DNA of 64,000 nt from Acidobacteriota bacterium. GTDB lineage: Bacteria > Acidobacteriota > Thermoanaerobaculia > Multivoradales > JAGPDF01. The notes beneath the pieces are model-generated. The model saw nothing but the letters and a program-made list of their open reading frames with translations, did not search any database and was not told where the DNA came from. The position numbers were made by a program, and so were the translations under genes. Numbering within the stretch: the stretch's first letter is position 1; every line of letters starts with the position of its first letter. Positions 3,765 to 55,215 of this stretch are shown here, in pieces. The stretch is from positions 5,434 to 69,433 of the forward strand of contig JAAYLR010000030.1 of the NCBI GenBank assembly GCA_012521815.1, written 5' to 3'.

Positions 3765-3893
3765 CGGCGACCTCCTTTCGGTCCTCGGATCATAGCCGTT
3801 CGCGCTCGCTCCCGGGCTCCGGACGACGCTCGCGGCGCGGCCATCCGGCAGCCGTCTCCGATCCCGCGGCGACCGGCGATAGACTCGGCGGCG

Positions 3894-4658: not shown

Positions 4659-4669
4659 CCGGAGGCGCC

Positions 4670-11284: not shown

Positions 11285-11364
11285 CTCAGTTCGTCTCCTA
11301 TCCTGCGGTCGTTACCCGATCCACGAGATAACCGCACGCACGCAACGTTCTTTCCGCCTCTCTC

Positions 11365-12561: not shown

Positions 12562-12563
12562 CT

Positions 12564-13493: not shown

Positions 13494-13506
13494 GGAACGC
13501 CTCCGT

Positions 13507-14625
13507 TCAGAGCTTCGCCGCGATGGCGCGGCCGAGATCGAGGGTGGTGGCGCTGCCGCCCATGTCGTAGGTGCGGACCTGCCCCTCGGCGATCACCGCC
13601 GCGGTCGCCGCCTCGATCCGGCCCGCCATCTCCGTCTCGCCGAGCCAGTCGAGCATCATCTTCGCGGCGAGGATGGTGGCGATCGGGTTGACCTTGTACA
13701 TCCCCGCGTACTTCGGCGCCGAGCCGTGCGAGGGCTCGAAGACGCCGAGCTTCGTGCCGATGTTGCCCGAGCAGCCGAAGCCGAGGCCGCCGACCATCTG
13801 CGCCGCGAGGTCGGAGATGATGTCGCCGTAGAGGTTCGGCGCCACGAGCACCTCGTAGGAGAGCGGGTTCTTCAGCAGCCACATGCAGATCGCGTCGATG
13901 TTCGCGTCGTCGCAGGCGATCTCCGGGTAGTCGGCGGCGACCTTGCGGGCCATCTCGAGGAAGAGCCCGTCGGTGGCGCGCACCACGTTCGCCTTGTGGA
14001 TGATCGTCACCTTCTTGCGGCCGTGCTTGCGGGCGTACTCGAACGCCGCCCGTGCGATCCGCTCCGAGCCGTGGCGGGTGTTGATCTTGCACGAGATCGC
14101 GTACTCGTCGAGGGCGCGGCCGGCGAACGGCTTGAACGCCGGGGCGTTGCGGCCGAGCACCTCGGCCACCTCGGCCGGCACCGGCGAGAACTCGACGCCG
14201 GCGTAGAGGTCCTCGGTGTTCTCGCGGAAGACCACGAGGTCGATCCCCTCGCGCAGGTTGAGCGGGTTGCCCGGATACGCCTTGCAGGGGCGCAGGCAGG
14301 TGTAGAGATCGAACAGCTGCCGCATCCGCACGATCGGCGAGCGGTACTTCAGCCCCTTGCCCTGCAGCTCGGGGACGAGCTCGGCCTCGGCGGTCTTCGC
14401 CGGCTTCGAGGTGATGGCGCCGAACATCGCGGCGTCGACGCGGCCGAGCAGGTCCACGGTGCGCTGCGGGAAGGCGTCTCCCTCCCGGCACCAGAACTCC
14501 CAGCCGATGTCACCATGTTCGTAGTCGGCCCGGAAGCCGACGGCGTCGAGCACGAGGCGGGTCGCTTCGAGGACTTCGATGCCGATTCCATCTCCGGGCA
14601 GCCAGGCGATCTTGTAGCTCTTCAT
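13507..14625 (-). CDS. isocitrate/isopropylmalate dehydrogenase family protein (LeuB-/tartrate-DH-like)
   Basis: 372 aa from the ATG at 14625 (MKSYKIAWLPGDGIGIEV...NLYGDIISDLAAQMVGGLG). This is a beta-decarboxylating dehydrogenase signature. The ORF 13507..14790 is over-extended. Confidence 0.85.
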   Translation of the reverse strand: MKSYKIAWLPGDGIGIEVLEATRLVLDAVGFRADYEHGDIGWEFWCREGDAFPQRTVDLLGRVDAAMFGAITSKPAKTAEAELVPELQGKGLKYRSPIVRMRQLFDLYTCLRPCKAYPGNPLNLREGIDLVVFRENTEDLYAGVEFSPVPAEVAEVLGRNAPAFKPFAGRALDEYAISCKINTRHGSERIARAAFEYARKHGRKKVTIIHKANVVRATDGLFLEMARKVAADYPEIACDDANIDAICMWLLKNPLSYEVLVAPNLYGDIISDLAAQMVGGLGFGCSGNIGTKLGVFEPSHGSAPKYAGMYKVNPIATILAAKMMLDWLGETEMAGRIEAATAAVIAEGQVRTYDMGGSATTLDLGRAIAAKL

Positions 14626-14788
14626 GGATTCGCTCCGCAGGGGTTGGTGGCCCGTCCGGCCACCGGGGTCGGGCCGCTTCGGCGGCCGGAAACAGGCTAT
14701 CCGCCGGACGTTGCGCCGTCGCCACCCCGCCGGGCGGGAGGCATACAATGCCCTCGACTCTGAACCGCGACCGCGGAGGCGGAACACC

Positions 14789-43300: not shown

Positions 43301-44214
43301 AGGCTCCGGCGGAGCGGGCACCGGAGGCCGCCGAGGAGGCGGTCGCGCCCTCTCTCGCCGCGGATGCCGAAGACGGAACCGGCGCGGAGATTCCCTCCGA
43401 ACCGGCCGTGGACGATCTCGAACCCGCGGCCTCGGAGACCGTGGCCACGGCTCTCCCGGAGCCCGCGCGACGGCTGGAGGCGGCGCTCGCCACCGCGCTC
43501 CGTGCGGCCGCCGAAGAGGCCGGGATTCCGGAGGCGGACCGGGAGGTCGCGATCGCGGCGGTGACCGCCGGCGTGCTCCCCGGCGTCGCCAGGCTGCGGG
43601 CGCTCGTCGCCGCCGCCCGGAGCGACGAGGAGAGCCCGGCGGCGGTCCGCCTCCGCGCGGCGTTCGGGCCCGGAAAACGGGAGGCGGGGCTGCTCGCCTG
43701 GCTCCTCCTCCGCGACCTCGGGAGGCTCGCCGGGGAGGCGGAAACCGGGACGGCGGCGACGGCGGTGCGCGAGCGCACCGCGGCCTGGTTCGACGACTGG
43801 CGGCTCGGCCGGGTCGTGGCGCGGCAGCTCGCGGCCGGGGGGCTCTCACCGGCGGCGGCCGAGCGGGCGGTCCAGGCGGTGCGGCTCCTCTTCCTCCTCG
43901 AGAGGCCCGGCGCGCGCGCCGCCGCCGCCGAGGTCCCCGCCCTCTTCGCCGAAGCCGCGGCGAGCGAGGCGGGGCGCACGCTGCTCGGCATCCATCCGTA
44001 CGACGGGGTGGTCTGGCTGCGGCGCGAGGGGCTCGACGAGCTGACCGCCTGGCTCCTGCTCGCCGCCCGACTCGAGACGCTGGATGCCACCGCCGGGGAG
44101 ATCGCCGCCGCCGGCGGCCGTGTCCTCGCCGCCCGCGCCGAGCGTGCCGGCTACCGGCTGGAGCCCCTCCTCCGGACGCTCACCGGCGAGCCGGACGCCG
44201 ACGCCGACGCCTGA
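40366..44214 (+). CDS. alpha-amylase family (GH13-like) protein with about 450-aa Ala/Glu-rich C-terminal extension
   Basis: Catalytic region motifs DMVPNHVG and FDAAMTL. The C-terminal third is low-complexity acidic/Ala-rich. GTG start at 40366 is uncertain. Confidence 0.7.
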   Translation: MAVPFPLPPGTPRELHVSREARDRYRFDEDLFGFTGRALIAHFAAARRFAAAINARRDTVRHPEQAVSTGEIAAAGLIDEINHLLLRRFRERADPGLLGRALALFGERLGTAAVQQTLAGFCDEFPPVAVYRRQLAPESWLAGATGGEPHREAALEELALLWLNNLNPAFVRHRELFDDRRLAATTSYNQVVAGLREAFGRHPVPAELAGEGGEENILDLLRAAALAAPHSAEAQLRLLLARFGDLVGHDLARELLTALDVLKEEGRALLAAGGGFGAPAELRAAELPLPAFDGLAVEPEAFTADRAWMPRLVLLAKNVFVWLDQLSRRHRRPLATLAEIPDAELDELARRGITGLWLIGLWERSPASRRIKQLMGNPEAAASAYSLFDYVIAGELGGEAALADLAARAARRGIRLASDMVPNHVGIDGRWVLEHPEWFIQLPYPPFPSYSFDGPDLSPDPAIGIHLEDHYYQRSDAAVVFRRTDRRTGEVRYLYHGNDGTHMPWNDTAQLDYLRADVREAVIQTILRVARQFPIVRFDAAMTLAKRHYQRLWYPEPGTGGDIPSRAGRGLSRAEFDAQMPQEFWREVVDRCAAEVPETLLLAEAFWLMEGYFVRSLGMHRVYNSAFMVCLRDEENAKYRRILKETLEFDPEILYRFVNFVSNPDERTAVDQFGKGDKYFGVATLMATLPGLPMFGHGQIEGFAERYGMEYRRAYHDEEPDPWLLARHEREIFPLLHRRALFAGVEEFCLYDLVGDEGGVREDVFALSNRRGPERALVLCNNGPHPQSGRLFRAAPAAEKLPDGTKRLRERTLAEGLGLAGGPDRILLWREPGSGLEYLRPSGELAAHGFPVSLGPYQTRVLLDLRELTDADGRYHALAAELGERGVPSVEEALLEMALRPLHAPFAALLAPDLTAALLAPAASPDEESWWLATAAALPETEREEELPDADGGEAQAPDEPAADGETVLPPLADGVSEEAPAERAPEAAEEAVAPSLAADAEDGTGAEIPSEPAVDDLEPAASETVATALPEPARRLEAALATALRAAAEEAGIPEADREVAIAAVTAGVLPGVARLRALVAAARSDEESPAAVRLRAAFGPGKREAGLLAWLLLRDLGRLAGEAETGTAATAVRERTAAWFDDWRLGRVVARQLAAGGLSPAAAERAVQAVRLLFLLERPGARAAAAEVPALFAEAAASEAGRTLLGIHPYDGVVWLRREGLDELTAWLLLAARLETLDATAGEIAAAGGRVLAARAERAGYRLEPLLRTLTGEPDADADA

Positions 44215-44256
44215 CGGCCGGCGAGGCCGGGGCCCTCCGGTCCGGGAACCGCCGTC

Positions 44257-45681
44257 TCAACCGGCCCGGCGCTCGGCGCGAGCGGCGGCGACGGCGGCTT
44301 CCCGCTCGCGGCGCTCCTCGTCGCTGAGCGCCCACTTCCGCACCGAGACCGTCGCCTTCATCTTCTCGATCACCTCGAGCGCGATCTCCCGCACCAGCGG
44401 CTCGAGGGCAGCGACGCCGTCGCCGGTGAGGAGGCGGCCGACGAGGGCGTCCGACATCTCGGCGAGCGCCCCTTCGCCCGCCGGGGTCCGGGAGGTGGCG
44501 GCGAGGGACTCGACGGTCGCCTCGATCACGAGGCCGCCGATCGCGCGGGCGAGCGGGCGGACGACGAGACCGGGCAGCGGCACCTCGTCGAGCGCGCGGG
44601 AGCGGGCGACGGCATGGTCGAGGTGGAGGGCGAGGAGCCGGTGCAGGCCGGCGAGCAGCTCCGGATCGGCGAGGAGGCTCCCGATCTGGCTCGCGAGCTC
44701 GCCCGCGATCGCCTCCCGCCGCCCGGCGACGACCTCCGCCGCGATCCGCCGGTGGGTGCCCGCGAGGAGCTCCTCCTCCAGCTCGTGGAGCAGGACGAGC
44801 GCCACCCGGTCGGAGACCTCCTCGGCGATGATCGCGCCGATCGTGCCCGCGGCGCGGCTGAAGAGATCGCGGCCGACGCTCGACAGCTCGCTGCGGCGCA
44901 GCCGCATGTAGATCGAAACCGCGCGCAGCGGCCGGAAGAGCCGGAAGTAGGCGGTCGGCAGGAGGCCGATCACGTCGTACCAGTGGAAGAGCGGATAGAA
45001 CCACCAGCGCGCGTCGCGCCCCCGCCGCACCGCCCCGCGCCAGCGCCAGGCGAACTCGCCGACGAAGAGGAGGAGGAACGGCAGGTCGAGCTTCCAGAAG
45101 TTGTCCTCGAGGGCGCCCGTGCGGTCGTACTCGCGGTAGAAGTTCGGCACGAGCAGGGGGCGCAGCTCGCTGTCGAAGAAGGCGAGGCGGTGGCGCAGCA
45201 GCTGCCGCTCGGGCGGCCAGAGCGCCACCGCCGCCGCCGAGGCGCGCACCGGATCGGCGAGCTCGAGCGTCGGGATCTCCAGCTCCGCCGCCACCCGCCG
45301 CCGTACCGCCTCGAAGCTGCGACCCTGCCCGGAGCGTTCGAACGGGTTCTCGACCAGCAGCCGGGCGGTGAGGGCCTGGAGCGTCTCGAGCCGCGCCGCC
45401 GTCGGCTCGCGCCCGGGCTCGAGCTCCACGCCCTGGCGCACCGCCTGCTCTTCGGCGAGCAGAGCGGCGGTGAGCGGATGGGGCTCGATCCCCTTGACCG
45501 GATCGTAGAGGCGCACGAGCGGCGGCAGGAAGCGCTGATAGGTCGGCCGGAGGAGCAGGTAGGTGAGGTCGAAGAGGATGAGGCAGAGGTTGATCAGCGC
45601 CACCCAGACCATGAAGACGTCCCAGAGCAGCTCGCGGCCGAGCCTGCCCCGGGGATGCACCTGCGCCAGCAGCTCCTTCAC
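44257..45681 (-). CDS. hypothetical membrane protein with S4-like arginine-periodic helix
   Basis: 474 aa. GTG start with GGAGGAGGTGG SD. TM segments include YFRLFRPLRAVSIYMRLRR (Arg every third residue). Confidence 0.55.
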   Translation of the reverse strand: MKELLAQVHPRGRLGRELLWDVFMVWVALINLCLILFDLTYLLLRPTYQRFLPPLVRLYDPVKGIEPHPLTAALLAEEQAVRQGVELEPGREPTAARLETLQALTARLLVENPFERSGQGRSFEAVRRRVAAELEIPTLELADPVRASAAAVALWPPERQLLRHRLAFFDSELRPLLVPNFYREYDRTGALEDNFWKLDLPFLLLFVGEFAWRWRGAVRRGRDARWWFYPLFHWYDVIGLLPTAYFRLFRPLRAVSIYMRLRRSELSSVGRDLFSRAAGTIGAIIAEEVSDRVALVLLHELEEELLAGTHRRIAAEVVAGRREAIAGELASQIGSLLADPELLAGLHRLLALHLDHAVARSRALDEVPLPGLVVRPLARAIGGLVIEATVESLAATSRTPAGEGALAEMSDALVGRLLTGDGVAALEPLVREIALEVIEKMKATVSVRKWALSDEERREREAAVAAARAERRAG

Positions 45682-45815
45682 GCTCCCACCTCCTCCATCG
45701 TGCGGATCCTAGCCCTCCCGCCGGGGCGGCGCCCGCGAGAAGGGAGGGAGCTGGTGATAGCGTTCCCGCAGCCGTTCGCCGCGCACCCGGCACCCAGACC
45801 TTCGGAGGCCCGCCG

Positions 45816-47288
45816 CTGGATACCGCCCTCGTTCTCGCGCTCCTCGCCGGCGCGACGCTCCTGCTGCTGAGCGTCCTCGCCAGCCGTCTCTCCTCCCGCC
45901 TCGGGATCCCCGCGCTCCTCCTCTTCCTCCTCATCGGGATGCTCGCCGGCTCGGAGGGTCCGGGCGGGATCGCCTTCGACAACGCCCGGCTCGCGATGTT
46001 CGTCGGCTCGATCGCGCTCGCGCTGATCCTCTTCGACGGCGGGCTCCAGACCGAGCTCGAGCAGCTCGGCCGGCCGCAGCTGCGCGCCGGGCTGATCCTG
46101 GCGACCCTCGGGGTCGTCATCACGGCCGCGGTGGTCGCCGCCTTCTGCGTGCTCGCGCTCGGGATGTCGCCGCTCCAGGGGCTCCTGGTCGGTTCCGTGC
46201 TCTCCTCCACCGACGCCGCGGCGGTCTTCTCCGTGCTCCGGGCGCGCGGGGTCGGTCTCTCGCCGCGGCTGCGCTCGCTCATCGAGTTCGAGTCGGGCAG
46301 CAACGACCCGACCGCCGTCTTCCTGACCGTGGCCGTCATCTCCGCGGCCCAGCTCGAGGCCGCCGAGCCGTGGCGACTCGTCCTCTCGTTCCTCTTCCGG
46401 ATGGGCGGCGGCGTCGCCCTCGGCTGGCTCGCGGGGCGGGTCCTCGTCTGGCTGCTCAACCGGATCGACCTCGAGTACGACGGCCTCTACTCGGTGCTCA
46501 CCCTCGCCGCGGTCGGCACCATGTTCGGCGCCGCCGAGGCCGCCGGCACCAGCGGCTTCGTGGCGGTCTACGTGGCCGGGCTCACGATGGCGGGCCGGAT
46601 CTTCGTCCACCATCGCAGCATCGTGCGCTTCCACGAGGGGCTCGCCTGGCTGATGCAGGTGACGATGTTCCTGGTCCTCGGCCTGCTCGTCTACCCCTCG
46701 CACCTGGCCCGCGGGATCTGGCCGGCGCTGGCGATCTCGGCGGTGCTGATGCTCGTCGCGCGGCCGGCGGCGACCTTCCCGTCGCTGATCGGCTCGGGCC
46801 TGAGCTGGCGCGAGCGGCACATGGTCGCCTGGGTGGGGCTGCGGGGGGCGGCCCCGATCATCCTCGCCACCTTCCCGCTCGTCGCCGGCCTCGACACCTC
46901 GGGGGTGATCTTCAACACCGTCTTCGTCGCGGTGATCACCTCGGTGCTCGTCCAGGGCCCGACCGTGAGCCTCGTGGCCCGGCGTCTCGGCATCGCCGAA
47001 CCGGTCACCGAGCCCCTTCGCTCCCCGATCGACGTCGACCTCCCGCGCGACCCGACCTTCTCGGTCAAACGGTTGCAGATCGAGGCCGGCTCGGAGGCCG
47101 ACGGCAAGAAGCTGCTCGCCATCGGCGGCCCCGACCGGCCGCTCATCGTCCTGATCCGCCGCCAGGGCTGCCTCTTCCTGCCCACCGGTGCCAGCCCGCT
47201 CGCCGCCGGCGACGAGCTGTTCGCGCTCGGCTCGGACGAGTCGATGCAGGCGCTCGGGCAGATCCTCCGGAAACCCAGGATCCCCTGA
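45816..47288 (+). CDS. nhaP2: K+/H+ (cation:proton) antiporter NhaP2-like with C-terminal TrkA-C domain; apparent CTG start
   Basis: An ATG-only start (45939) would delete TM1 (LDTALVLALLAGATLLLLSVLASRLSSRLGIPALLLFLLIGMLAG, a canonical NhaP2 N-terminus). GGAGG at 45804-45808 lies 7 nt before the CTG at 45816. No in-frame ATG/GTG/TTG is available upstream. Confidence 0.7.
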   Translation: MDTALVLALLAGATLLLLSVLASRLSSRLGIPALLLFLLIGMLAGSEGPGGIAFDNARLAMFVGSIALALILFDGGLQTELEQLGRPQLRAGLILATLGVVITAAVVAAFCVLALGMSPLQGLLVGSVLSSTDAAAVFSVLRARGVGLSPRLRSLIEFESGSNDPTAVFLTVAVISAAQLEAAEPWRLVLSFLFRMGGGVALGWLAGRVLVWLLNRIDLEYDGLYSVLTLAAVGTMFGAAEAAGTSGFVAVYVAGLTMAGRIFVHHRSIVRFHEGLAWLMQVTMFLVLGLLVYPSHLARGIWPALAISAVLMLVARPAATFPSLIGSGLSWRERHMVAWVGLRGAAPIILATFPLVAGLDTSGVIFNTVFVAVITSVLVQGPTVSLVARRLGIAEPVTEPLRSPIDVDLPRDPTFSVKRLQIEAGSEADGKKLLAIGGPDRPLIVLIRRQGCLFLPTGASPLAAGDELFALGSDESMQALGQILRKPRIP

Positions 47289-47329
47289 ACGGGGCGCCCC
47301 GCCCGGCCTCGGGATAAGCTCGCCGGCCG

Positions 47330-48802
47330 ATGGCAACTCCGATCCCGCCCAACCGCGCCCGCTTCACGCTCGGCGAGCTCGCTACCGCCACCGGCGGCCG
47401 GCTCTTCGCCGCCGATCCCGAGACCGCGGTCACGGGGGTCACCACCGACTCGCGTACCGCCGAGGCGGGGGGACTCTTCGTCGCGCTCTGGGTACCGCCT
47501 GGCGGCCCCCTCGAGATGACCCGGGACGGCCACGAGTTCGTCGCCGCCGCCCGCGAGCAGGGCGCCTTTCCCATGGTGGCCACCGGCCGCAGCGTCACAG
47601 GTCCCCGGCTCGAGGTCGCCGATACCCTCCGCGCCCTCGGTGACCTCGCCCGCCATTTCGTGGCGCGGCAGACGCAGGGGCACCCGGTGCCGGCGCTGGC
47701 GATCGGCGGCGCCGCGGGCAAGACCACCACGAAGACGCTGGCCGCGGCCGCGGTCACCGCCCTCTGCGGCCCGACCCTCGCCACCCCGGGAAGCCTGAAC
47801 AACCTGCTCGGGGTGCCCCTCACCCTCCTCTGCCTCGGCCGGGAGCACCGGACGATGGTGATCGAGTGCGGCACCTCGTCGCCCGGCGAGATCCCCCGCC
47901 TCGGCGAGATCGTGCGCCCCGAGGTGGCGCTCGTCCTCAACGTCGACCTCGAGCACAGCGAGCGGCTCGGCGACCTCGCGGCGATCGCCGACGAGGAGGC
48001 CGCGCTCTTCGCGGCCGCCCGCCGCGCCGTCGTCACCTCGACCGAAGAGCCGGAGCTCCTCGCGCGGCTCCCCCGGAGCGGCGGGCAGGAGGCGCTCCTC
48101 TTCGGCGCCGGCGCGCCGGCGGACGTGCGCCTCGCCCGCCGGGAGACGCTTCCCGACGGAACCGCGCGGGTCGTGCTCGAGATCGCCGCGCGGCTGCGGG
48201 CCCGGCGGGCCGACCGCCGGCTCGAGATCGTCACCCCGCTGCTCGGTCCCACTGCCGCCGTGGATCTCGCTGCCGCGGTGGCGGGTACGGCGGCGCTCCG
48301 GGACCGGCCGCTCGATCAGGAGGAGCTGGTCGCGGTCGCGCGGGCGCTCGGCGCGGTGCCAGCGGTGCCCGGGCGTCTCGCCCCCCGCCGGTTCGGCGAG
48401 GTGCTCGTGCTCGACGACAGCTACAACGCCAACCCGCGCTCGGTGCGCGCCGCGCTGGCCGCGGCCCGCGAGGCCGCCGCGGCCCGGAACGGCCGGCTCC
48501 TCGTCGCGCTCGGCGACATGCTCGAGCTCGGCGACGCCGCGGCGACCGCGCACGCCGAGATCGTGCAGGAGGCGGCGGCCGGGGCCGCGCTCTTCGCCGG
48601 CGCCGGCCCCTTGACCACGGCGGCGGCGCGCGCGGCCGGCCTCGCCACCGACTGCCTCCTCGCCGACGACGCGGCCGAGCTCGCCGAGGCGCTCGTCGCC
48701 CGAAGCGCGCCGGGCGACGTGGTCCTCGTCAAGGGCTCGCGGGGGATGCGGATGGAGCGGCTCGTCGCCGCCTTCGAACGCGCGGGAGAGGACCCCGGAT
48801 GA
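47330..48802 (+). CDS. murF: UDP-N-acetylmuramoyl-tripeptide--D-alanyl-D-alanine ligase (MurF)
   Basis: 490 aa with DSR...GGLFVAL, GKTTTK P-loop, DDSYNAN and [10 protein letters not shown] motifs diagnostic of MurF. It is not flanked by murE/mraY. Confidence 0.8.
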
Positions 48803-50517
48803 GCACCGGAGAGGCCACGACCCGGCGCGGTGCCGAGATCCTGCTCGCCGCCTACCAGGCCTACCGCACCGCGCTCGCCGGCCTCACGGACGCCGCCGCC
48901 GGGCACTTCGCACGCCGCGACTGGGCAGCCGCCCGGCGGGATGCGGTCGAGCGGCTCGTCATCTACCGCCAGAACCTCGACACGGCGATCGCCGCGCTCA
49001 CGGAACAGTTCGGGGAGGCGGTCCGCCTGCGCCAGACCTGGGGCGGGCTCAAGGCGGCGTTCCGGCCGCTCGCGGCGGCCGAGGTCGACACCGAGATCGC
49101 GGAGACCTTCTTCAACTCCGCGACCCGCCGGGTCTTCTCCACCGTCGGCATCGACCCGGAGATCGAGTTCGTCTCCCGCGCGGCGCCGCTGGCCGCCGTC
49201 GGCCCGGACGAGGACGGGACGGCGTGCCGGCGCTTTCCGGCGAGCGGCGGCCTCGAGGCGCTCCTCGGCGAGATCCTCGCCGGCTACCGCCCCGGATGCG
49301 GCTACGAAGACGCCGCCCGCGACGCGGCGCTCGGCGCCGCCGCGCTCGCCGAGGCCCTCGCCGGCGCCACCGTCCACGAGGCCGAGCTCGTCCGCGCCCC
49401 CTTCCATCGCGGCCAGGCCGCCTATCTGGTCGGCCGCCTCCGCGGCCCCGGTCTGCGGCAACCGCTGGTGCTCGCGCTCACCAACCCGGACGGCCGCGCC
49501 CGGCTCGACGCCGTGCTCACCGCCGAGGACGACGTGAGCATCGTCTTCAGCTTCACCCGCTCCTACTTCTTCGTCGACGCCGGCCGCACCGCCGAGCTCG
49601 TGCGCTTCCTCCGGGCGATCATGCCGCGCAAGCCGGTGGGCGAGCTCTACAACTCCCTCGGCTTCAACAAGCACGGCAAGACCGAGCTCTACCGGGCGCT
49701 GCTCCGGCACCTCGAGACCACCGACGCCCGCTTCGACATCGCCCGCGGCGAGCGCGGGATGGTGATGGCGGTCTTCGACCTCGCCGGCTTCGACTCGGTC
49801 TTCAAGATCATCCGCGACCGGTTCGATCCGCCGAAGTCGACCACCCGGGCCGAGGTGATGGGCAAATACCGGCTCGTCTTCGAGCACGACCGGGCCGGCC
49901 GGCTGGTCGACGCCCAGGAGTTCGAACACCTCGTCTTCGCCCGCGAACGGTTCACCCCCGCGCTCCTCGCCGAGCTGGCGGCGAAGTGCGCCGGCACCGT
50001 GCGGATCACCGACGACACGGTCCACTTCGACCACCTCTACACCGAGCGCCGGCTCACCCCGCTCGACGTCTGGCTCCGGGAGGCGTCGCCGGAGGCGGCC
50101 CGGGCGGCGGTGCTCGACTTCGGGCAGGCGCTGCGCGACCTCGCGGCCACCGACATCTTCCCCGGCGACCTCCTGCTCAAGAACTTCGGCGTCACCCGGC
50201 ATCACCGGGTGGTCTTCTACGACTACGACGAGCTCTCGCGGGTGCGCGACTGCGTCTTCCGCGACCTGCCCGAGGCGGAGACCGACGAGGAGGAGATGGC
50301 CGGGGAGGCCTGGTTCTACGTCGACGAGCGCGACATCTTCCCCGAGGAGTTCATCCGCTTCTTCGGCATCCCGCCGGCGCTGCGCGCTCCGTTCCTCGAC
50401 GCCCACCGCGACCTGCTCCGCGCCGACTTCTGGCGCTCCCTGCAGGAGGACCACCGCCGGGGCGTCCATTACGACATCCGCCCCTACCCCGACTCGCTCC
50501 GTCTCCACCCCCGCTGA
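48799..50517 (+). CDS. aceK: isocitrate dehydrogenase kinase/phosphatase
   Basis: 572 aa, AceK-specific architecture and motifs (FDYDEL, ATP-binding region). ATGA overlap with the murF stop. Confidence 0.85.
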
Positions 50518-50609
50518 ACGCCGCGCCGGGCAGCCGGCGGCGGCCGGGTGGTATCCTGCGCCCGGTTCGAGTGTCGTTTCGCCGGATCCCGAAAGACAGG
50601 AGGTCTCCC

Positions 50610-51911
50610 ATGTCCGAATGGCGTTTCACGGTCCCCGGAGACGGGGCGCAGATCACCCTGGAAGGCGGCCGCCTGCAGGTGCCCGACCGGCCGATCGTCC
50701 CGTTCATCGAGGGCGACGGCACCGGCCCCGACATCTGGCGGGCGTCGGTGCGCGTCTTCGACGCCGCGGTCGAGAAGGCGTACGGCGGCCGGCGGAAGAT
50801 CGCCTGGATGGAGGTGCTCGCCGGGCAGAAGGCGTTCGACCTCGCCGGCGTCTGGCTGCCGGAGGCGACCGTGGAGGCGTTCCGCGACTACCTGGTCGGG
50901 ATCAAGGGCCCCCTCACCACCCCGATCGGCGGCGGCATCCGCTCGCTCAACGTCGCGCTGCGCCAGCTGCTCGACCTCTACGTCTGCCTGCGGCCGGTCC
51001 GCTGGTTCGCAGGGGTCCCCTCGCCGGTGAAGCATCCGGAGAAGGTGGACATGGTGATCTTCCGCGAGAACACCGAGGACATTTACGCCGGCATCGAGTT
51101 CGCCGCCGGCTCGCCCGAGGCCACGAAGCTGCTCGCGTTCCTCGGCGCCGAGTTCCCGAAGGAGTACGCGAAGATCCGCTTCCCCGGCAGCTCGGGCATC
51201 GGCATCAAGCCGGTCTCCGAGGAGGGAACCGAACGGCTGGTGCGCGCCGCGATCGACTACGCGCTCACCAACGGCCGCAAGAGCGTCACCTTCGTGCACA
51301 AGGGCAACATCATGAAGTACACCGAAGGGGCGTTCCGCAACTGGGGCTACGCGCTCGCGGAGCGGGAGTTCGGCGACCGGGTCTACACCTGGGAGCAGTG
51401 GGAGCGCACCAGGCGCGAGCGGGGCGAGAAGGCGGCCAACGAGGAGCAGCGCGGGGCGCTCGCCGGCGGCCGGGTGCTCGTCAAGGACGCGATCGCCGAC
51501 ATCACCCTGCAGCAGGTCCTCACCCGCCCCAACGAGTTCGACGTCATCGCCACCCTGAACCTCAACGGCGACTACCTCTCCGACGCCCTCGCCGCGCAGG
51601 TCGGCGGCATCGGGATCGCACCGGGCGGCAACGTCAACTACGCCACCGGCCACGCGGTCTTCGAGGCGACCCACGGCACCGCGCCGAAGTACGCCGACCT
51701 CGACAAGGTGAACCCCGGCTCGGTGATCCTCTCCGGCGAGATGATGCTCCGCTACCTCGGCTGGACGGAGGCCGCGGATCTGATCCTCCGCGGCATGGAC
51801 GGCGCCATCGGCGCGCGCCGGGTCACCTACGACTTCGCGCGGCTGATGGAGGGAGCCACCGAGATCCGCTGCTCGGAGTTCGGCGACGCGGTGATCGCCC
51901 AGATGGGCTGA
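50610..51911 (+). CDS. icd: NADP-dependent isocitrate dehydrogenase (AceK-regulated type)
   Basis: 433 aa. The phosphorylation loop [20 protein letters not shown] matches the E. coli Ser113 region. AGGAGG SD before the ATG at 50610. Confidence 0.9.
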
Positions 51912-51936
51912 GGCGAGCGCCAGACGCCGTCCGGCC

Positions 51937-53358
51937 TCAGGCGAGCGGCTCGCCGCGGCGCACCCGGCCGCGGGCGAGCGAGGCGAGCACCCCGAGCACG
52001 CAGAGCGGGCCGAAGAGCAGGAACGCCTGCCGCTGCGTGGCGAGCAGCGCCAGCGCGTTGTCCGCGCCGAGCCGCGCCTCCCCCATCGTGCGGGCGGTCA
52101 GGAGCGCGAGCGCCGCCATCGAGAGCGACTGGCCGAGCTGCCGCATCGTCCCGAGGACCGCCGAGGCCACGCTGTAATCGCGCCGGTCGACCGCGCTCAT
52201 CACCGCGTTGGTGTTCGGCGAGGAGAAGAGCGCGAAGCCGACGCCGATCAGCAGCAGCGTTCCCACCACCACCGCGAGCGGCGTGGCGGGGCCGAGCAGC
52301 GCGAAGAGGAATAGGGAGAGCGCCGTCAGCGCCATCCCGAGCGAAGCCGGCACCCGGGGCTGGAACCGGTCCGAGAGCCGGCCGGCGAGCGGGGAGAGGA
52401 GCGCCATGGTCAGCGGCTGGGCGAGCAGCAGCAGGCCGGCGTGGCGCGGCGGCAGCCCCCGGACCACCTGCAGGTAGAGCGAGAGGAGATAGCCGACCGC
52501 GAAGGTGGCGCTGTAGTTGAGCAGCGCCGCGAGGTTCGAGAAGGTGAAGACCGGATCGCGGAAGAGCCGCGCCGGCACGATCGGCCGCGCGCTCAGCCGG
52601 TCGCGCACGAGGAAGAGCCCGAAGGCCACCGCGCCGGCGGCGATCACCCACTTGCCCGCGCCGCTCCGCGCCACCGCCGCGAGGCCGCCGACGAGCGCCC
52701 CGAAGCCGGCGGCGTAGAGCGCGGCGCCGAGCCAGTCGAACCGTCGCTCCGTCACCTCCGGCGACCGCTCGCGCGGGATCGAGAGCGCGCCGTAGAGCGC
52801 CATCCCGCCGCCGAACAGGCCGCTGCCGAGGAAGATCGCGCGCCAGCCGAACCACTCGACGATCAGCCCGCCGATCACCGGTCCGAGCGCGAGGCCGAGA
52901 TAGACCGAGGCGACGCTGATCCCGAGGACCCGTCCCCGCTGCGAGGCGGGGAAGGCGGCCACGACCATCGCCATCCCGGTGGCGAACGGCATCGCACCGG
53001 TGCCACCTTGCAGCGCCCGCAACCAGACGAGCGAGCTGATGTTCGGCGCCGCCGCCGCGGCGAGAAGGAAGAGAGCCTGCAGCGCGGCGCCGGTGAGGAA
53101 GATCCGCCGACGGCCGGCGAGGTCGGCGAGCCGGCCGAACGGCAGCAGCAGCGCCGCGGCGGCGATGATGAACGCGACGACGACCCCGTGCAGCGCCGCC
53201 GCGGGGGCCGCGAACTCCTCGCCGATCGCCGGGATCGCCAGGTTGAGGGCGCTCGAGAGAAAGGGGGTGAGGAACGCCGAAAGGCTCACCACCACGAGGA
53301 CCGCCTGCCGCTGCCCGGGCGGCGGCAGCGCCCCCGGGGGGCCTTCCACGCCCGCCAT
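51937..53358 (-). CDS. MFS transporter (DHA2-like drug:H+ antiporter family)
   Basis: 473 aa, about 14 TM helices, MFS motif GRLADLAGRRR. Confidence 0.8.
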   Translation of the reverse strand: MAGVEGPPGALPPPGQRQAVLVVVSLSAFLTPFLSSALNLAIPAIGEEFAAPAAALHGVVVAFIIAAAALLLPFGRLADLAGRRRIFLTGAALQALFLLAAAAAPNISSLVWLRALQGGTGAMPFATGMAMVVAAFPASQRGRVLGISVASVYLGLALGPVIGGLIVEWFGWRAIFLGSGLFGGGMALYGALSIPRERSPEVTERRFDWLGAALYAAGFGALVGGLAAVARSGAGKWVIAAGAVAFGLFLVRDRLSARPIVPARLFRDPVFTFSNLAALLNYSATFAVGYLLSLYLQVVRGLPPRHAGLLLLAQPLTMALLSPLAGRLSDRFQPRVPASLGMALTALSLFLFALLGPATPLAVVVGTLLLIGVGFALFSSPNTNAVMSAVDRRDYSVASAVLGTMRQLGQSLSMAALALLTARTMGEARLGADNALALLATQRQAFLLFGPLCVLGVLASLARGRVRRGEPLA

Positions 53359-53454
53359 GGGCCCGAGTCTACGGGATGCACGGACGCCGCATCGCGGCGC
53401 GAGCCGCTAGAATGTTCGCGTGCCCGCTTCGCGGCACCGAGAGGGAGGATCGCG

Positions 53455-55215
53455 ATGCCCACCGAACAGACCGAGATGCGGCGTGTCCTCTACTTCCCCG
53501 GGCGCGCGGCGCTGACCGCCTCGTTCTTCCGGTCGCTCGCCGCGCTCGACGAGTGCCGGCTCGGGGCGCGCAGCGGCGAGCCCACGGTGGTCTGCCGGGA
53601 GACCGCCCTCTCGTTCGTCGAACGGCGCTCGATCGAATCGTTCCTCGCCGCCCTCCACAGCCAGTACTTCAACCTCGTCCTGCTCGACCTCCGCGAGCCG
53701 GTGGAACCCCGCGGACGGAAGCGCAAGCAGACGGCGTTCGCGCGCGGGATGGCGCTGCTCGAGGCGATGGATCGCGAGACCGACATCGAACGCCGGTACG
53801 GCTTCCACCGGATCTTCGCCCTCGTCTCGGGGCCGGATCCGATCGAGGTCGACCGCCAGATCGCCACCCTCGGCGCGGTCGGGGTGCGCCACGTGATGCG
53901 GGACCCCTCGACCTGCCACCACGATCCGTCCTGTCCCCGCCTCCCCGAAGCCGCCGCCTTCTCCCGCCAGGTGCTGCGGGAGATGAAGGAGGTCTGCCTG
54001 CACCGGCAGCCGGGCAAGATCGCGCTCTGCGTCTCGGGCGGCGGGATCACCGGCCTCTACTTCGAGCTCGGGGTCCTGAAGTGCCTCGAGGACTGCCTCC
54101 CCCCCGGCACCCTCAACCGGCTCGACCTCTACTTCGGCATCAGCGCCGGCAGCGTGCTCAGCGGCATCCTCGCCAACGGCTTCTCGGTGACCGAGTTCAT
54201 GGCGGCGATCGACGGCGCGGGAGAGGGGCGGATCGAGCCGCTCGACCTCAACCTCCTCGGCCTCTCGCACCTCGACCTGCGCGGCCTCGCCGCGCCGCTG
54301 CGGCAGGTCTTCTCGCTCGCCAGCCGCGGCGCCGCCGAGCTGCTCCGGGGGCGGCTCCCCTTCTCGCTCGAATCGCTGATCTTCGAGTACGGCGACCTCT
54401 TCCACGCGCCGTTCCGCACCGACGGCTTCGGCAACCTGCTGCGGCGCGCCTTCAGCCGCCCCGGTCACACCGACGACTTCCGGCAGCTGCCGCACCCCCT
54501 CTTCGTCGGCGCCACCGATCAGGACCTCAAGGAGCACGTCCTCTTCGGCGAGCCGCCGTACGACGAGGTGCCGATCAGCGTCGCCATCCAGGCCTCGATG
54601 AGCATCAACCCGGTCTTCGCGCCGACCGTGATCGGCGGCCGCTACTTCGAGGACGGCGCGGTGACCCGGACCTCGAACTTCCCCGACGCCATCCGGAAAG
54701 GCGCGGACCTGATCTTCACCATCGACCCGATCGTCCCGTACGTCTCGAAACGCGCCGGCTTCGCCCGGAACCGCGGGGTCTTCTACAACACCGACCAGGA
54801 CATCCGCACCGTCTCCTTCACCCGCTACGACACCACCCGCAACTGGGCGCTGCGGCGCCACCCCGAGGTCTCGCTCTACACCTTCCTGCCGCCGAACAGC
54901 CTGCGCCGGATCCTCTCGGTCAACCCGATGGACCACCGGCCGTTCCGCGAGATCTGGCGGGGCGCCTACCTCGGCACCCTGAAGCGGATCGAAGCGCTGG
55001 GCTACCGCCTCCGCGGCGACCTGCGGGCGCACGGGATCGCCTTCGACCCGCAGCCGGCCATGGCGGTGGCGGCCCGGCTCAATGCGGTCCGACAACCGCG
55101 CTTCGCCGACTTCTTCCCCGACGGAAAGGTCGAGATCCGGTCGGTCGAACCGCCCGCGAAGCCGCGGGCGACGAAGCGCCCGGCCCGGCGCCCGCAGGCG
55201 CCGCCCGCCGCCTGA
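53455..55215 (+). CDS. patatin-like phospholipase with ~190-aa N-terminal extension
   Basis: Oxyanion CVSGGGITG, lipase GISAGS (GxSxG) and the DGA/DGG Asp motif (FEDGAV). The N-terminal 190 aa are not matched to any domain I recognise. GAGGGAGG SD. Confidence 0.8.
   Translation: MPTEQTEMRRVLYFPGRAALTASFFRSLAALDECRLGARSGEPTVVCRETALSFVERRSIESFLAALHSQYFNLVLLDLREPVEPRGRKRKQTAFARGMALLEAMDRETDIERRYGFHRIFALVSGPDPIEVDRQIATLGAVGVRHVMRDPSTCHHDPSCPRLPEAAAFSRQVLREMKEVCLHRQPGKIALCVSGGGITGLYFELGVLKCLEDCLPPGTLNRLDLYFGISAGSVLSGILANGFSVTEFMAAIDGAGEGRIEPLDLNLLGLSHLDLRGLAAPLRQVFSLASRGAAELLRGRLPFSLESLIFEYGDLFHAPFRTDGFGNLLRRAFSRPGHTDDFRQLPHPLFVGATDQDLKEHVLFGEPPYDEVPISVAIQASMSINPVFAPTVIGGRYFEDGAVTRTSNFPDAIRKGADLIFTIDPIVPYVSKRAGFARNRGVFYNTDQDIRTVSFTRYDTTRNWALRRHPEVSLYTFLPPNSLRRILSVNPMDHRPFREIWRGAYLGTLKRIEALGYRLRGDLRAHGIAFDPQPAMAVAARLNAVRQPRFADFFPDGKVEIRSVEPPAKPRATKRPARRPQAPPAA

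What the first reader, a model, noticed from the sequence alone, without database searches (positions are those of the whole stretch)
47330..51911. murF translationally coupled to aceK, immediately upstream of the AceK-target icd
A full-length MurF (DDSYNAN and VKGSR motifs) sits outside any dcw cluster context, with NhaP upstream. Its stop overlaps the aceK start (ATGA at 48799-48802). aceK is normally the last gene of aceBAK and icd is normally unlinked. Here aceK lies directly 5' of an icd whose phospho-acceptor loop ([13 protein letters not shown]) is identical to the E. coli Ser113 region. The kinase is thus encoded with its substrate, and peptidoglycan precursor synthesis appears linked to TCA/glyoxylate flux control.
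Basis: partly seen in the sequence, partly recalled or inferred. Interest (0 to 1): 0.5.

Follow-up and report, generated by a model that had tools for sequence, protein, structure and literature searches.

The report
murF–aceK operon beside icd gene
In one group of wastewater Acidobacteria (class Thermoanaerobaculia), a cell-wall ligase gene (murF) that lies outside the usual cell-division cluster shares a transcript with the kinase gene aceK, which sits next to its target enzyme gene icd; this looks like shared low-level expression, not a link between wall synthesis and carbon flux.

Summary
A full-length MurF-family gene (47330-48802) ends in an ATGA overlap with an intact aceK (48799-50517). 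After a 92-nt spacer comes an NADP-isocitrate dehydrogenase gene (50610-51911) whose phospho-loop matches E. coli. The organism is a Thermoanaerobaculia MAG common in digesters and sewage.

- murF directly upstream of aceK recurs in four related lineages (AceK identity down to 62%).
- It is absent from 80 more distant AceK loci. There, aceK sits next to aceA/aceB (19) or icd (8).
- It is also absent from nine more distant relatives of this MurF, whose constant neighbour is purE, often with the same 4-nt overlap.
- The window's only two extended -10 motifs lie upstream of the antiporter gene and in the aceK-icd spacer, so icd probably has its own promoter.

The likeliest reading is a lineage-specific housekeeping operon that gives aceK low, coupled expression. 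A wall-metabolism regulatory link is not indicated. Whether a second murF sits in a dcw cluster could not be tested.

One unexpected point emerged. This icd, like most aceK-adjacent icd genes found, carries the B. subtilis-type 13-residue insert, which the literature says hinders recognition by AceK.

The parts
45755..45763 (+). Extended -10-like motif TGATAGCGT; putative promoter P1 for antiporter-murF-aceK
   Evidence: It is one of only two TGNTANNNT matches in the 64-kb window on either strand, and it is intergenic and correctly oriented. TGATAGCCT sits at the equivalent place in L008. A GGAGG lies about 40 nt downstream, before the antiporter start. The promoter role is inferred; no transcript data exist.
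45816..47288 (+). K+/H+ antiporter gene (NhaP2/CvrA type, with a C-terminal TrkA_C domain). The start is uncertain: CTG at 45816, inferred from the 490-aa NCBI gene call in L003, or ATG at 45939.
   Evidence: Pfam Na_H_Exchanger and TrkA_C. NCBIfam NF003716 at 484 bits, cutoff 355. Alternative gene calls appear.
47310..47321 (+). 12-nt block CGGGATAAGCTC just upstream of the murF ATG, identical in the window and in L008 although the upstream genes differ. No Shine-Dalgarno sequence precedes murF. Role unknown.
   Evidence: Alignment and upstream sequences. Only two sequences share the block, and more distant relatives lack it.
47330..48802 (+). MurF-family ligase gene (UDP-MurNAc-tripeptide:D-Ala-D-Ala ligase), 490 aa. 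It belongs to a divergent sub-clade with the N-terminus MATPIPxN, the P-loop [10 protein letters not shown], and Glu223 where E. coli MurF has Lys202.
   Evidence: Mur_ligase_M and Mur_ligase_C domains. TIGR01143 at 257 bits, below the 288.6 cutoff. Full-length alignment to 1GG4, 4CVK and 4ZIY. Motif conservation across 120 homologues. Groups with dcw-embedded Myxococcota MurFs. dN/dS against L008 is 0.26.
48799..48802 (+). ATGA: the aceK start codon overlaps the murF stop codon. A GGGAGAGG Shine-Dalgarno-like run lies 7 nt upstream, inside murF.
   Evidence: Sequence. The equivalent GTGA overlap occurs in L008 and L177.
48799..50517 (+). aceK, bifunctional isocitrate dehydrogenase kinase/phosphatase, 572 aa
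   Evidence: Pfam AceK_regulatory and AceK_kinase. NF002804 at 630 bits, cutoff 488. 38% identical to E. coli AceK, with [25 protein letters not shown] invariant.
50549..50557 (+). Extended -10 motif TGGTATCCT in the aceK-icd spacer; putative icd promoter P2
   Evidence: TGGTATYCT is invariant in the window, L008 and L177 within an otherwise poorly conserved spacer. It is the only such 9-mer in the window, with 0.04 expected by chance. All seven TGNTANNNT matches in related loci are intergenic and correctly oriented. The promoter role is inferred.
50598..50603 (+). AGGAGG ribosome-binding site, 6 nt before the icd ATG
   Evidence: Sequence; conserved in L008 and L177.
50610..51911 (+). icd, homodimeric NADP-isocitrate dehydrogenase, 433 aa. 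Ser112 is equivalent to E. coli Ser113.
   Evidence: NF005425 at 706 bits and TIGR00183 at 674 bits. 64% identical to E. coli ICDH. The best PDB match is B. subtilis IDH 1HQS at 680 bits.
51327..51476 (+). The part of icd that encodes the AceK-recognition-segment region (aa 240-289). It is 50 residues long, as in B. subtilis IDH, against 37 in E. coli. The extra 13 residues are about aa 270-282 ([13 protein letters not shown]).
   Evidence: Alignments. Class definitions and their reported consequence for AceK recognition come from PMC3521221 and PMC12707098.

Best explanation
The locus is a lineage-specific housekeeping gene block in a sub-clade of Thermoanaerobaculia (Acidobacteriota).

(1) The first gene is a genuine but divergent MurF. 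Its clade includes MurFs embedded in the murE-murF-mraY position of Myxococcota. In Thermoanaerobaculia and Binatia this clade lies outside any dcw context, usually beside purE.

(2) In the window's sub-clade, aceK follows murF in place of purE, and icd follows aceK in three of the four lineages. No extended -10 motif precedes aceK. It is transcribed with the antiporter gene and murF from a promoter upstream of the antiporter. It is translated by coupling to murF through the 4-nt overlap and an internal Shine-Dalgarno-like run. That would keep the kinase/phosphatase at low, steady, catalytic levels.

(3) icd has a strong ribosome-binding site and very probably its own extended -10 promoter in the 92-nt spacer. 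The abundant dehydrogenase would then be expressed independently of its low-abundance regulator.

(4) AceK is expected to phosphorylate Ser112 of the adjacent ICDH, as in E. coli. If so, it does this on an ICDH that carries the B. subtilis-type insert.

(5) The murF-aceK juxtaposition reflects ancestry and expression hitch-hiking, not a metabolic coupling of wall synthesis to carbon flux.

Shown: gene identities, the overlap, its conservation, the neighbourhood statistics and the motif positions. Inferred: the promoters, the translational coupling, the enzyme activities and the AceK-ICDH interaction.
For: Gene identities
- Family scans and structure-sequence matches.
- All catalytic motifs of the MurF are kept across 120 homologues.
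- The Lys202-to-Glu change also occurs in MurFs that sit between murE and mraY (L018, L022, L038, L044, L049 and others). Burkholderiales dcw MurFs have Asn there.
- The shared MATPIPxN N-terminus and a neighbour-joining tree place the window protein with dcw-embedded Myxococcota MurFs (L015-L019, L022, L023).

Selection
- dN/dS against L008 is 0.26 for murF, 0.37 for aceK and 0.20 for icd.

Neighbourhood
- murF-aceK adjacency is present in the window, L008, L177 and L180.
- L178 has purK-aceK with an ATGA overlap, and L179 has asnB-aceK-icd.
- 0 of 80 more distant AceK loci have murF nearby.
- More distant relatives of this MurF have purE as neighbour in L009-L014 and L174-L176, with a 4-nt murF/purE overlap in L010, L174 and L176.

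Promoters
- Only two TGNTANNNT motifs exist in 64 kb. Both are intergenic, on the + strand, upstream of the antiporter gene and of icd.
- TGGTATYCT is invariant in three lineages, with 0.04 expected by chance.
- Seven of seven further matches in relatives are intergenic and correctly oriented.
- No terminator-like site and no Rfam element occur in 44000-53500.

aceK and icd as a unit
- Identity to the window falls in parallel for AceK and the adjacent Icd. It is 53/79% in L095, 51/79% in L107, 56/81% in L179, 43/74% in L140 and 41/73% in L163.
Against: - murF-aceK adjacency survives while both flanks change. Upstream is the antiporter, abgT or a radical-SAM gene, and downstream of aceK is icd or another gene. 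It persists down to about 60% protein identity, which is longer than neutral gene order often lasts. Some selection on the pair cannot be excluded.
- In sister lineages (L010, L011, L174) a different type of IDH gene lies immediately upstream of murF, with 0-12 nt between them (0 in L010). So murF is found beside an IDH gene in two architectures, which is either coincidence or a weak hint of a link.
- The MurF scores below the curated TIGR01143 cutoff, and PGAP names its 98%-identical cluster representative (P0001) only 'Mur ligase family protein'.
- I could not show that it is the only MurF in the genome.
- Promoters are inferred from motifs alone.
- The literature states that the 13-residue insert hinders recognition of IDH by AceK. 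That argues against the simple E. coli-like mechanism unless this AceK has adapted.
Confidence: 0.6

Rival explanations
1. Functional coupling. Co-transcription and translational coupling of murF and aceK, beside icd, would coordinate the last cytoplasmic ligase step of peptidoglycan precursor synthesis with control of the TCA/glyoxylate branch point. For example, wall synthesis would be matched to carbon supply.
For: - The pair is kept in four lineages with 59-77% MurF and 62-75% AceK identity while the flanks vary, and three keep the 4-nt overlap.
- Other Thermoanaerobaculia have a different IDH gene abutting murF (L010, L011, L174).
Against: - There is no known biochemical connection between MurF (D-Ala-D-Ala addition) and ICDH or AceK (my own knowledge).
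- The pairing is absent from 80 more distant AceK loci and from 9 more distant loci of this MurF clade.
- Within the clade, aceK can equally be coupled to purK (L178), and murF to purE.
- icd appears to have its own promoter.
- Gene order conserved only inside one lineage is weak evidence of function.
Confidence: 0.12
2. The MurF-like gene is a second, specialised paralogue and not the housekeeping MurF. A canonical murF would remain in a dcw cluster elsewhere. This copy, acquired from a Myxococcota-like donor, would add a different dipeptide or act in recycling or another pathway. Its operon partners (purE, aceK) would then say nothing about wall synthesis.
For: - It scores 257 bits on TIGR01143, below the 288.6 cutoff, against about 395 for typical dcw MurFs.
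- It has Glu in place of the Lys202 equivalent, which I recall as the carbamylated lysine of MurD, MurE and MurF (Dementin et al. 2001, from memory).
- It groups with Myxococcota MurFs and not with the dcw MurFs of other Acidobacteriota (L029, L032, L070).
- It is out of dcw in every Thermoanaerobaculia and Binatia locus seen.
- Sorangium cellulosum carries an out-of-dcw member of the clade (L036).
Against: - Every catalytic and MurF-specific motif is intact and under purifying selection.
- Equally divergent Glu-type members sit in the canonical murE-murF-mraY slot (L018 scores 296 bits).
- Most pipelines name the relatives MurF.
- MurF is single-copy in most bacteria (general knowledge).
- No second MurF was seen, but that could not be tested.
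Confidence: 0.2
3. Assembly or binning artefact: the juxtaposition is a chimeric join in a metagenome contig.
For: The window comes from a metagenome-assembled genome with very high G+C content.
Against: - Identical gene order was read on 22 contigs, and the six places shown come from six different samples (ENA, NCBI, JGI).
- The same order occurs in related species on 164-kb and 941-kb contigs, and on other contigs.
- The overlap is in frame for both genes.
Confidence: 0.01

Closest known systems
E. coli aceBAK operon and the AceK-ICDH phosphorylation switch
   Same: - Same bifunctional kinase/phosphatase family, with both domains and the catalytic FPGD...KNFGVTRH...YDYDE block conserved.
- Same type of homodimeric NADP-ICDH, with the Ser113-equivalent loop identical.
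- aceK is again the promoter-distal, presumably low-expressed gene of an operon.
   Different: - aceK follows murF, not aceB-aceA, and no aceA or aceB lies in the 64-kb window.
- The substrate gene icd is adjacent instead of unlinked.
- The ICDH carries the B. subtilis-type 13-residue insert in the AceK-recognition segment. That class is described as a poor AceK substrate, or none.
Canonical dcw-cluster murF (murE-murF-mraY), e.g. E. coli MurF (PDB 1GG4)
   Same: Full-length three-domain Mur ligase with the P-loop, the Glu/His metal ligands, DDSYNANP and KGSR. The nearest relatives in Myxococcota sit in the canonical slot.
   Different: - It lies outside any dcw context, beside an antiporter gene and aceK.
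- Glu replaces Lys202.
- It scores below the curated TIGR01143 cutoff.
- In this class the usual neighbour is purE.
Bacillus subtilis isocitrate dehydrogenase (PDB 1HQS)
   Same: It is the best PDB match (680 bits, against 576 for E. coli ICDH). The 50-residue region with the helical-hairpin insert has the same length.
   Different: B. subtilis has no AceK (PMC3521221). Here the insert-bearing ICDH gene is adjacent to aceK, and the same holds in 8 of 10 other aceK-adjacent icd genes examined.
aceK-icd gene pairs in uncultured bacteria
   Same: aceK lies immediately next to icd in 8 of 80 metagenomic AceK loci, in both gene orders, and with a 4-nt overlap in L179.
   Different: None of those loci has murF upstream of aceK. 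Only the window's sub-clade does.

Membership tests
MurF (UDP-MurNAc-tripeptide:D-Ala-D-Ala ligase, TIGR01143) | Full-length three-domain Mur ligase that aligns end to end with solved MurF structures | tested here: met
   Query residues 12-486 align to 1GG4 residues 4-450 (E=1e-39). 4CVK, 4ZIY and 4QDI align similarly. Pfam Mur_ligase_M and Mur_ligase_C match.
MurF (UDP-MurNAc-tripeptide:D-Ala-D-Ala ligase, TIGR01143) | ATP P-loop GxxGK(T/S), the metal-binding Glu and His, and the MurF motifs DDxYNANP and KGSR | tested here: met
   GAAGKTT (aa 127-133), E179, H209, LDDSYNANP (aa 361-369) and [10 protein letters not shown] (aa 467-476). All are invariant or nearly so in 120 homologues.
MurF (UDP-MurNAc-tripeptide:D-Ala-D-Ala ligase, TIGR01143) | Lysine equivalent to E. 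coli MurF Lys202 (the carbamylated lysine of MurD, MurE and MurF; recalled from Dementin et al. 2001) | tested here: not met
   Glu223 aligns with Lys202, and 119 of 121 clade members have Glu. The same Glu occurs in dcw-embedded MurFs (L018, L022, L038, L044, L047, L049, L075, L082), and Burkholderiales have Asn there. So this residue does not define the family in practice.
MurF (UDP-MurNAc-tripeptide:D-Ala-D-Ala ligase, TIGR01143) | Score above the curated HMM cutoff | tested here: not met
   257.4 bits against a cutoff of 288.6. Relatives score 271-302, a dcw-embedded Glu-type member 296, and typical dcw MurFs about 395.
MurF (UDP-MurNAc-tripeptide:D-Ala-D-Ala ligase, TIGR01143) | Position between murE and mraY in a dcw cluster | tested here: not met
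   No dcw gene lies in the window. Relatives L009-L014 and L174-L176 are also outside dcw. More distant clade members L015-L019, L022 and L023 are inside it.
MurF (UDP-MurNAc-tripeptide:D-Ala-D-Ala ligase, TIGR01143) | Sole MurF of the genome, and D-Ala-D-Ala-adding activity | not testable with these tools
   The rest of the genome cannot be read with these tools. A MraY-seeded search for a Thermoanaerobaculia dcw cluster returned only another Acidobacteriota lineage.
AceK (isocitrate dehydrogenase kinase/phosphatase) | AceK regulatory and kinase domains, and a score above the curated equivalog cutoff | tested here: met
   PF20423 at 264 bits and PF06315 at 347 bits. NF002804 at 630 bits against a cutoff of 488.
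AceK (isocitrate dehydrogenase kinase/phosphatase) | Conserved catalytic core (Lys336, Asp457, Lys461, Asn462, Asp475, Asp477 in E. coli numbering, recalled from the structural papers) | tested here: met
   K336, D457, K461, N462, D475 and D477 are all invariant columns in the window / L008 / E. coli alignment. The loop after YDYDE aligns without any length difference.
AceK (isocitrate dehydrogenase kinase/phosphatase) | Genomic association with the glyoxylate-shunt genes aceB and aceA | tested here: not met
   No aceA or aceB lies in the window. 19 of 80 other AceK loci do have them adjacent. Their presence elsewhere in this genome was not testable.
AceK-regulated ICDH (E. coli-type 'class A' substrate) | Homodimeric NADP-ICDH with the Ser113 phospho-acceptor loop | tested here: met
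   NF005425 at 706 bits. [13 protein letters not shown] is identical to E. coli, with Ser112.
AceK-regulated ICDH (E. coli-type 'class A' substrate) | Short AceK-recognition segment (about 36-37 residues, no helical insert) | tested here: not met
   The region is 50 residues long with a 13-residue insert, as in B. subtilis IDH 1HQS. The literature assigns this form to the class not recognised by E. coli AceK.
Translationally coupled operon pair | Overlapping stop and start codons with an upstream Shine-Dalgarno-like run, conserved in relatives, and no intervening promoter or terminator signal | tested here: met
   ATGA in the window, preceded by GGGAGAGG. GTGA in L008 and L177, and an 11-nt gap in L180. 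No promoter-like or terminator-like site was found. Actual coupling was not testable.

The most novel reading that the evidence does not exclude
A widespread, uncharacterised branch of AceK regulates isocitrate dehydrogenases that carry the B. subtilis-type helical insert in the AceK-recognition segment. Current structural work treats that class of ICDH as excluded from AceK control. The branch is seen in Thermoanaerobaculia, and the AceK homologues at 52-57% identity carry source labels such as Eisenbacteria, Latescibacterota and Planctomycetes. If this is right, the substrate-recognition rules derived from the E. coli AceK-ICDH complex are not general, and AceK-type control of the TCA/glyoxylate branch point reaches well beyond Proteobacteria. 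In this sub-clade the kinase would be expressed as a translationally coupled passenger of a relocated murF.
Probability: 0.5. Interest if true: 0.55.

Novelty: new variant of a known kind. Interest (0 to 1): 0.33.

Why it matters
All three genes belong to well-known families, so the locus does not reveal a new kind of system. It gives three modest, testable points.

1. It is a natural case where the AceK switch is encoded beside its presumed substrate, and that substrate has the insert thought to block AceK. This tests directly how general the E. coli recognition model is.
2. It shows a whole class (Thermoanaerobaculia, and also Binatia) in which the only MurF-family gene seen lies outside the dcw cluster and has Glu in place of the Lys202 equivalent. 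That bears on ideas that mur gene order is constrained by Mur-complex assembly (PMC10214165).
3. It is a clean example of a low-abundance regulator expressed by hitch-hiking on an unrelated housekeeping gene. That is a caution against reading function from operon membership within a single lineage.

Tried and rejected
1. Search for a second, dcw-embedded murF in this lineage.
It returned only four loci of the window's own MurF group (L011-L014) and not the window's genome.
- A protein search seeded with MraY from an Acidobacteria dcw cluster (L029) returned 120 hits, all at least 74% identical to the seed. None was labelled Thermoanaerobaculia, and none lay on a contig known to carry the out-of-dcw MurF.
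- The question stays open.

2. 'Inactive paralogue' inferred from the Lys202-to-Glu change. Rejected, because the same substitution occurs in MurFs located between murE and mraY.

3. AceK-side signature of adaptation to the insert-bearing ICDH. Comparing 8 AceKs next to insert-type icd with 24 others gave no group-specific indel and only three weakly discriminating columns. This is inconclusive, because the ICDH type of the 'other' genomes is unknown.

4. Standard sigma-70 and intrinsic-terminator scans found nothing in 45500-52500. The scan requires a -35 element, which these promoters appear to lack.

5. RNA fold of the aceK-icd spacer. A GC-rich hairpin forms after the aceK stop, but it is no more stable than shuffled sequence (z = 0.48). 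It was not interpreted as a terminator.

6. An Rfam scan of 44000-53500 gave only one chance-level hit. Inverted repeats showed nothing at the gene junctions.

7. Literature searches for reported aceK-icd adjacency, or for murF outside dcw in Acidobacteria, found nothing specific.

8. A leaderless-mRNA or own-promoter reading of the conserved GGGATAAGCTC block upstream of murF was considered. It was left open, since only two sequences share the block.

Full report
**Source and context**

The window has 70-81% G+C. The exact MurF-like protein was read on 22 contigs. The places shown come from anaerobic-digester and sewage metagenomes and from the MAGs GCA_018000195.1 and GCA_029571755.1. The representative of the 98%-identical protein cluster is labelled Thermoanaerobaculia bacterium. 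All contigs shown have the same gene order: antiporter, Mur ligase, AceK, Iso_dh, then a convergent MFS transporter gene.

**Observation**

- The ORF 47330-48802 (+) ends in TGA at 48800-48802, and the aceK ATG is at 48799-48801.
- aceK ends at 50517. icd begins at 50610 after a 92-nt spacer that carries AGGAGG 6 nt before the ATG.
- Family scans give Mur_ligase_M and Mur_ligase_C for the first gene, AceK_regulatory and AceK_kinase for the second, and Iso_dh for the third.
- NCBIfam gives AceK NF002804 at 630 bits (cutoff 488) and NADP-ICDH NF005425 at 706 bits (cutoff 490). The murF model TIGR01143 gives only 257 bits, below its 288.6 cutoff.
- The upstream gene is a K+/H+ antiporter (NF003716).
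- tblastn with 15 E. coli dcw proteins finds no dcw gene in the window.

**Is the first gene a real MurF?**

- It aligns over its full length with E. coli, P. aeruginosa and A. baumannii MurF structures.
- The P-loop, the Glu and His ligands, DDSYNANP and KGSR are present. They are invariant across the 120 best homologues, which are 49-98% identical.
- One textbook residue is missing. Glu223 aligns with E. coli Lys202, and 119 of 121 clade members share the Glu. I recall Lys202 as the carbamylated lysine (Dementin et al. 2001).
- This is not a sign of inactivity. In 80 MurF loci from reference genomes, several MurFs sitting between murE and mraY have Glu at this position (L018, L022, L038, L044, L047, L049, L075, L082). 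Burkholderiales MurFs have Asn there.
- TIGR01143 scores put this in context. Typical dcw MurFs score about 395 bits, a dcw-embedded Glu-type member (L018) scores 296, and the out-of-dcw group scores 257-302.
- The invariant N-terminus MATPIPxN and a neighbour-joining tree place the window protein in a clade with dcw-embedded Myxococcota MurFs (L015-L019, L022, L023). It does not group with the dcw MurFs of other Acidobacteriota (L029, L032, L070). This may reflect an old transfer.
- Against the 77%-identical orthologue in L008, dN/dS is 0.26.
- I therefore file it as a divergent member of the MurF family. Its activity is untested.

**Where do relatives of this MurF sit?**

- Every out-of-dcw relative examined lies beside purE. 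These are L009, L010, L011, L174, L175 and L176 (Thermoanaerobaculia-like) and L012-L014 (Binatia and 'Deltaproteobacteria' MAGs).
- In L010, L174 and L176 the purE start overlaps the murF stop by 4 nt. In L012-L014 and L175 purE is divergently oriented.
- In L010, L011 and L174 a different, longer IDH gene (TIGR02924 type) lies immediately upstream. In L010 and L011 its TAG stop abuts the TTG start of murF.
- None is in a dcw cluster.
- I could not determine whether these genomes also have a dcw-embedded murF. The genome scan was truncated, and a MraY-seeded search reached only another Acidobacteriota lineage.

**How far does murF-aceK extend?**

A search with the window's AceK and context look-ups gave the following.

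| Locus | AceK identity | MurF identity | Arrangement |
|---|---|---|---|
| L007/L008 | 75% | 77% | abgT-murF-aceK-icd, GTGA overlap |
| L177 | 63% | 64% | radical-SAM gene, murF, aceK, icd; GTGA overlap |
| L180 | 62% | 59% | murF, 11-nt gap, aceK, then a gene that is not icd |
| L178 | 62% | none | purK-aceK with ATGA overlap; no murF, no icd |
| L179 | 56% | none | asnB-aceK-icd; aceK/icd overlap by 4 nt |

- Among 80 further AceK loci from metagenomes (39-54% identity), 19 have aceA or aceB immediately adjacent, 8 have icd, and none has murF.
- Of the 36 loci readable for at least 1 kb on both sides, 12 adjoin aceA/aceB, 4 adjoin icd and 20 adjoin neither.
- So murF-aceK is a conserved feature of one sub-clade only. 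aceK-icd is a recurrent minority arrangement across many lineages.
- aceK is repeatedly found as the overlapping downstream passenger of some unrelated biosynthetic gene.
- purE beside murF in relatives, and purK beside aceK in L178, would fit an ancestral order murF-purE-purK-aceK(-icd) reduced by deletions. That is speculation.

**Transcription signals**

- The standard promoter and terminator scan found nothing.
- The aceK-icd spacers of the window, L008 and L177 share an invariant TGGTATYCT inside otherwise divergent sequence. It matches the extended -10 consensus TGnTAnnnT.
- That 9-mer occurs once in the window, against 0.04 expected by chance.
- The general pattern TGNTANNNT occurs only twice in 64 kb on both strands. 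Both hits are on the + strand in intergenic DNA. One is at 50549, upstream of icd. The other is at 45755, upstream of the antiporter gene, followed by GGAGG and the likely start.
- In related loci all seven further matches are intergenic and point at the adjacent gene. These include the equivalents of both sites in L008 and the icd site in L177.
- I infer two units. The first is antiporter-(abgT)-murF-aceK, driven from P1. The second is icd, driven from P2, with possible read-through from the first.
- No RNA family and no convincing terminator lies in the region.

**The kinase and its presumed substrate**

- AceK is 38% identical to E. coli AceK. The catalytic block [25 protein letters not shown] is invariant, and the following loop has the same length.
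- The ICDH is 64% identical to E. coli ICDH and has an identical phospho-loop.
- Its best structural relative, however, is B. subtilis IDH 1HQS, at 680 bits against 576 for E. coli.
- It has the same 50-residue version of the region that in E. coli (residues 239-275) forms the AceK-recognition segment. This includes the 13-residue insert.
- PMC3521221 states that in B. subtilis IDH this region forms a rigid helical hairpin that prevents AceK from acting.
[quoted passage not shown] That paper used absence of the insert to predict phosphorylatable IDHs.
- Yet 9 of the 11 aceK-adjacent icd genes I could read have the insert: the window, L008, L095, L098, L107, L140, L151, L163 and L167. L151 has one gene (asnA) between aceK and icd.
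- Only the two divergently oriented pairs, L126 and L129, have the short E. coli form.
- The insert-type pairs fall in at least two AceK branches. AceK and Icd identities to the window fall in parallel, as expected for a co-inherited module.
- I found no AceK-side indel or strong signature that tracks the insert.
- The simplest reading is that these AceKs do act on their neighbours and tolerate the insert. This needs an experiment.

**Verdict**

- The locus is best explained as a lineage-specific operon. A relocated, divergent MurF gene carries aceK as a translationally coupled, low-expression passenger. icd follows with its own promoter.
- The proposed link between peptidoglycan synthesis and TCA/glyoxylate control is not supported by the comparative data. 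Conservation of the pair down to about 60% identity, and the recurrence of IDH genes beside this murF, keep a small probability alive.
- The most interesting by-product is the AceK pairing with an insert-bearing ICDH.

Noticed in passing
window 51327-51476 (icd aa 240-289); also L008, L095, L098, L107, L140, L151, L163, L167: The aceK-adjacent ICDH has the B. subtilis-type 50-residue AceK-recognition region with a 13-residue insert. The literature says this form hinders AceK. 9 of 11 aceK-adjacent icd genes examined share it.
   Followed up: partly
window 47330-48802 (aa 223); 120 homologues; L018, L022, L038, L044, L047, L049, L075, L082: A large MurF sub-clade (MATPIPxN N-terminus, [11 protein letters not shown]-loop) has Glu where E. 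coli MurF has Lys202. The same Glu, or Asn in Burkholderiales, also occurs in dcw-embedded MurFs, so this lysine is not universal in MurF.
   Followed up: partly
L009-L014, L174-L176 (relatives of the window MurF): Out-of-dcw MurFs of Thermoanaerobaculia and Binatia are consistently next to purE, across two phyla. The arrangement is either a 4-nt overlap or divergent orientation. No functional reason is known.
   Followed up: partly
L010 6537-8000, L011 740-2182, L174 4552-5988: A longer IDH gene (TIGR02924 type, with the bacterial IDH C-terminal domain) lies directly upstream of murF in three sister lineages. In L010 and L011 its TAG stop abuts the TTG start of murF. This is a second, different IDH-murF juxtaposition.
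   Followed up: partly
window 45755-45763 and 50549-50557; L008 2104, 4716, 11226; L177 4772(-), 9752; L179 6232; L176 2969: TGnTAnnnT (extended -10) is very rare in these 70-74% G+C sequences. Every occurrence seen is intergenic and points at the next gene. It looks like a usable promoter marker for this lineage.
   Followed up: partly
L036 (Sorangium cellulosum So ceGT47, NZ_CP012670.1 8595917-8617356): A member of the same MurF clade (40% identity, Glu type, MATPIP N-terminus) lies outside any dcw context in a complete Sorangium genome. Other Polyangiaceae have clade members inside dcw. This may be a second copy.
   Followed up: no
window 9995-14802 (- strand): A cluster of an aconitase-family gene, an HMGL-like gene (homocitrate or isopropylmalate synthase type) and an Iso_dh-family gene. 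The best NCBIfam matches for the last are homoisocitrate and isopropylmalate dehydrogenase models, all below cutoff. It is probably a lysine (alpha-aminoadipate) or leucine pathway block, and it adds a second Iso_dh paralogue to the window.
   Followed up: partly
window 3692-7351 (+): A large protein of about 1,200 aa with CoA-binding, succinyl-CoA-ligase-like, ATP-grasp_5 and C-terminal GNAT domains. This is a Pat/PatZ-like protein acetyltransferase architecture. Such enzymes regulate acetyl-CoA synthetase in other bacteria (my own recollection).
   Followed up: no
window 40366-44214 (+) and 44257-45681 (-): Two conserved genes (1,282 aa and 474 aa) have no Pfam or NCBIfam match. Both are syntenic with the murF region in L007/L008.
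   Followed up: no
window 14618-25824 (+): Very long open reading frames (about 1,800 and 2,450 codons between stops) lie in the most G+C-rich part of the window, up to 81% G+C. They were not examined. They may be one giant repetitive protein or an artefact of the rarity of stop codons.
   Followed up: no
L178 955-2125: purK is split into two overlapping ORF calls (a pre-ATP-grasp part and an ATP-grasp/PurK_C part). This suggests a frameshift or an assembly error just upstream of the overlapping aceK.
   Followed up: no
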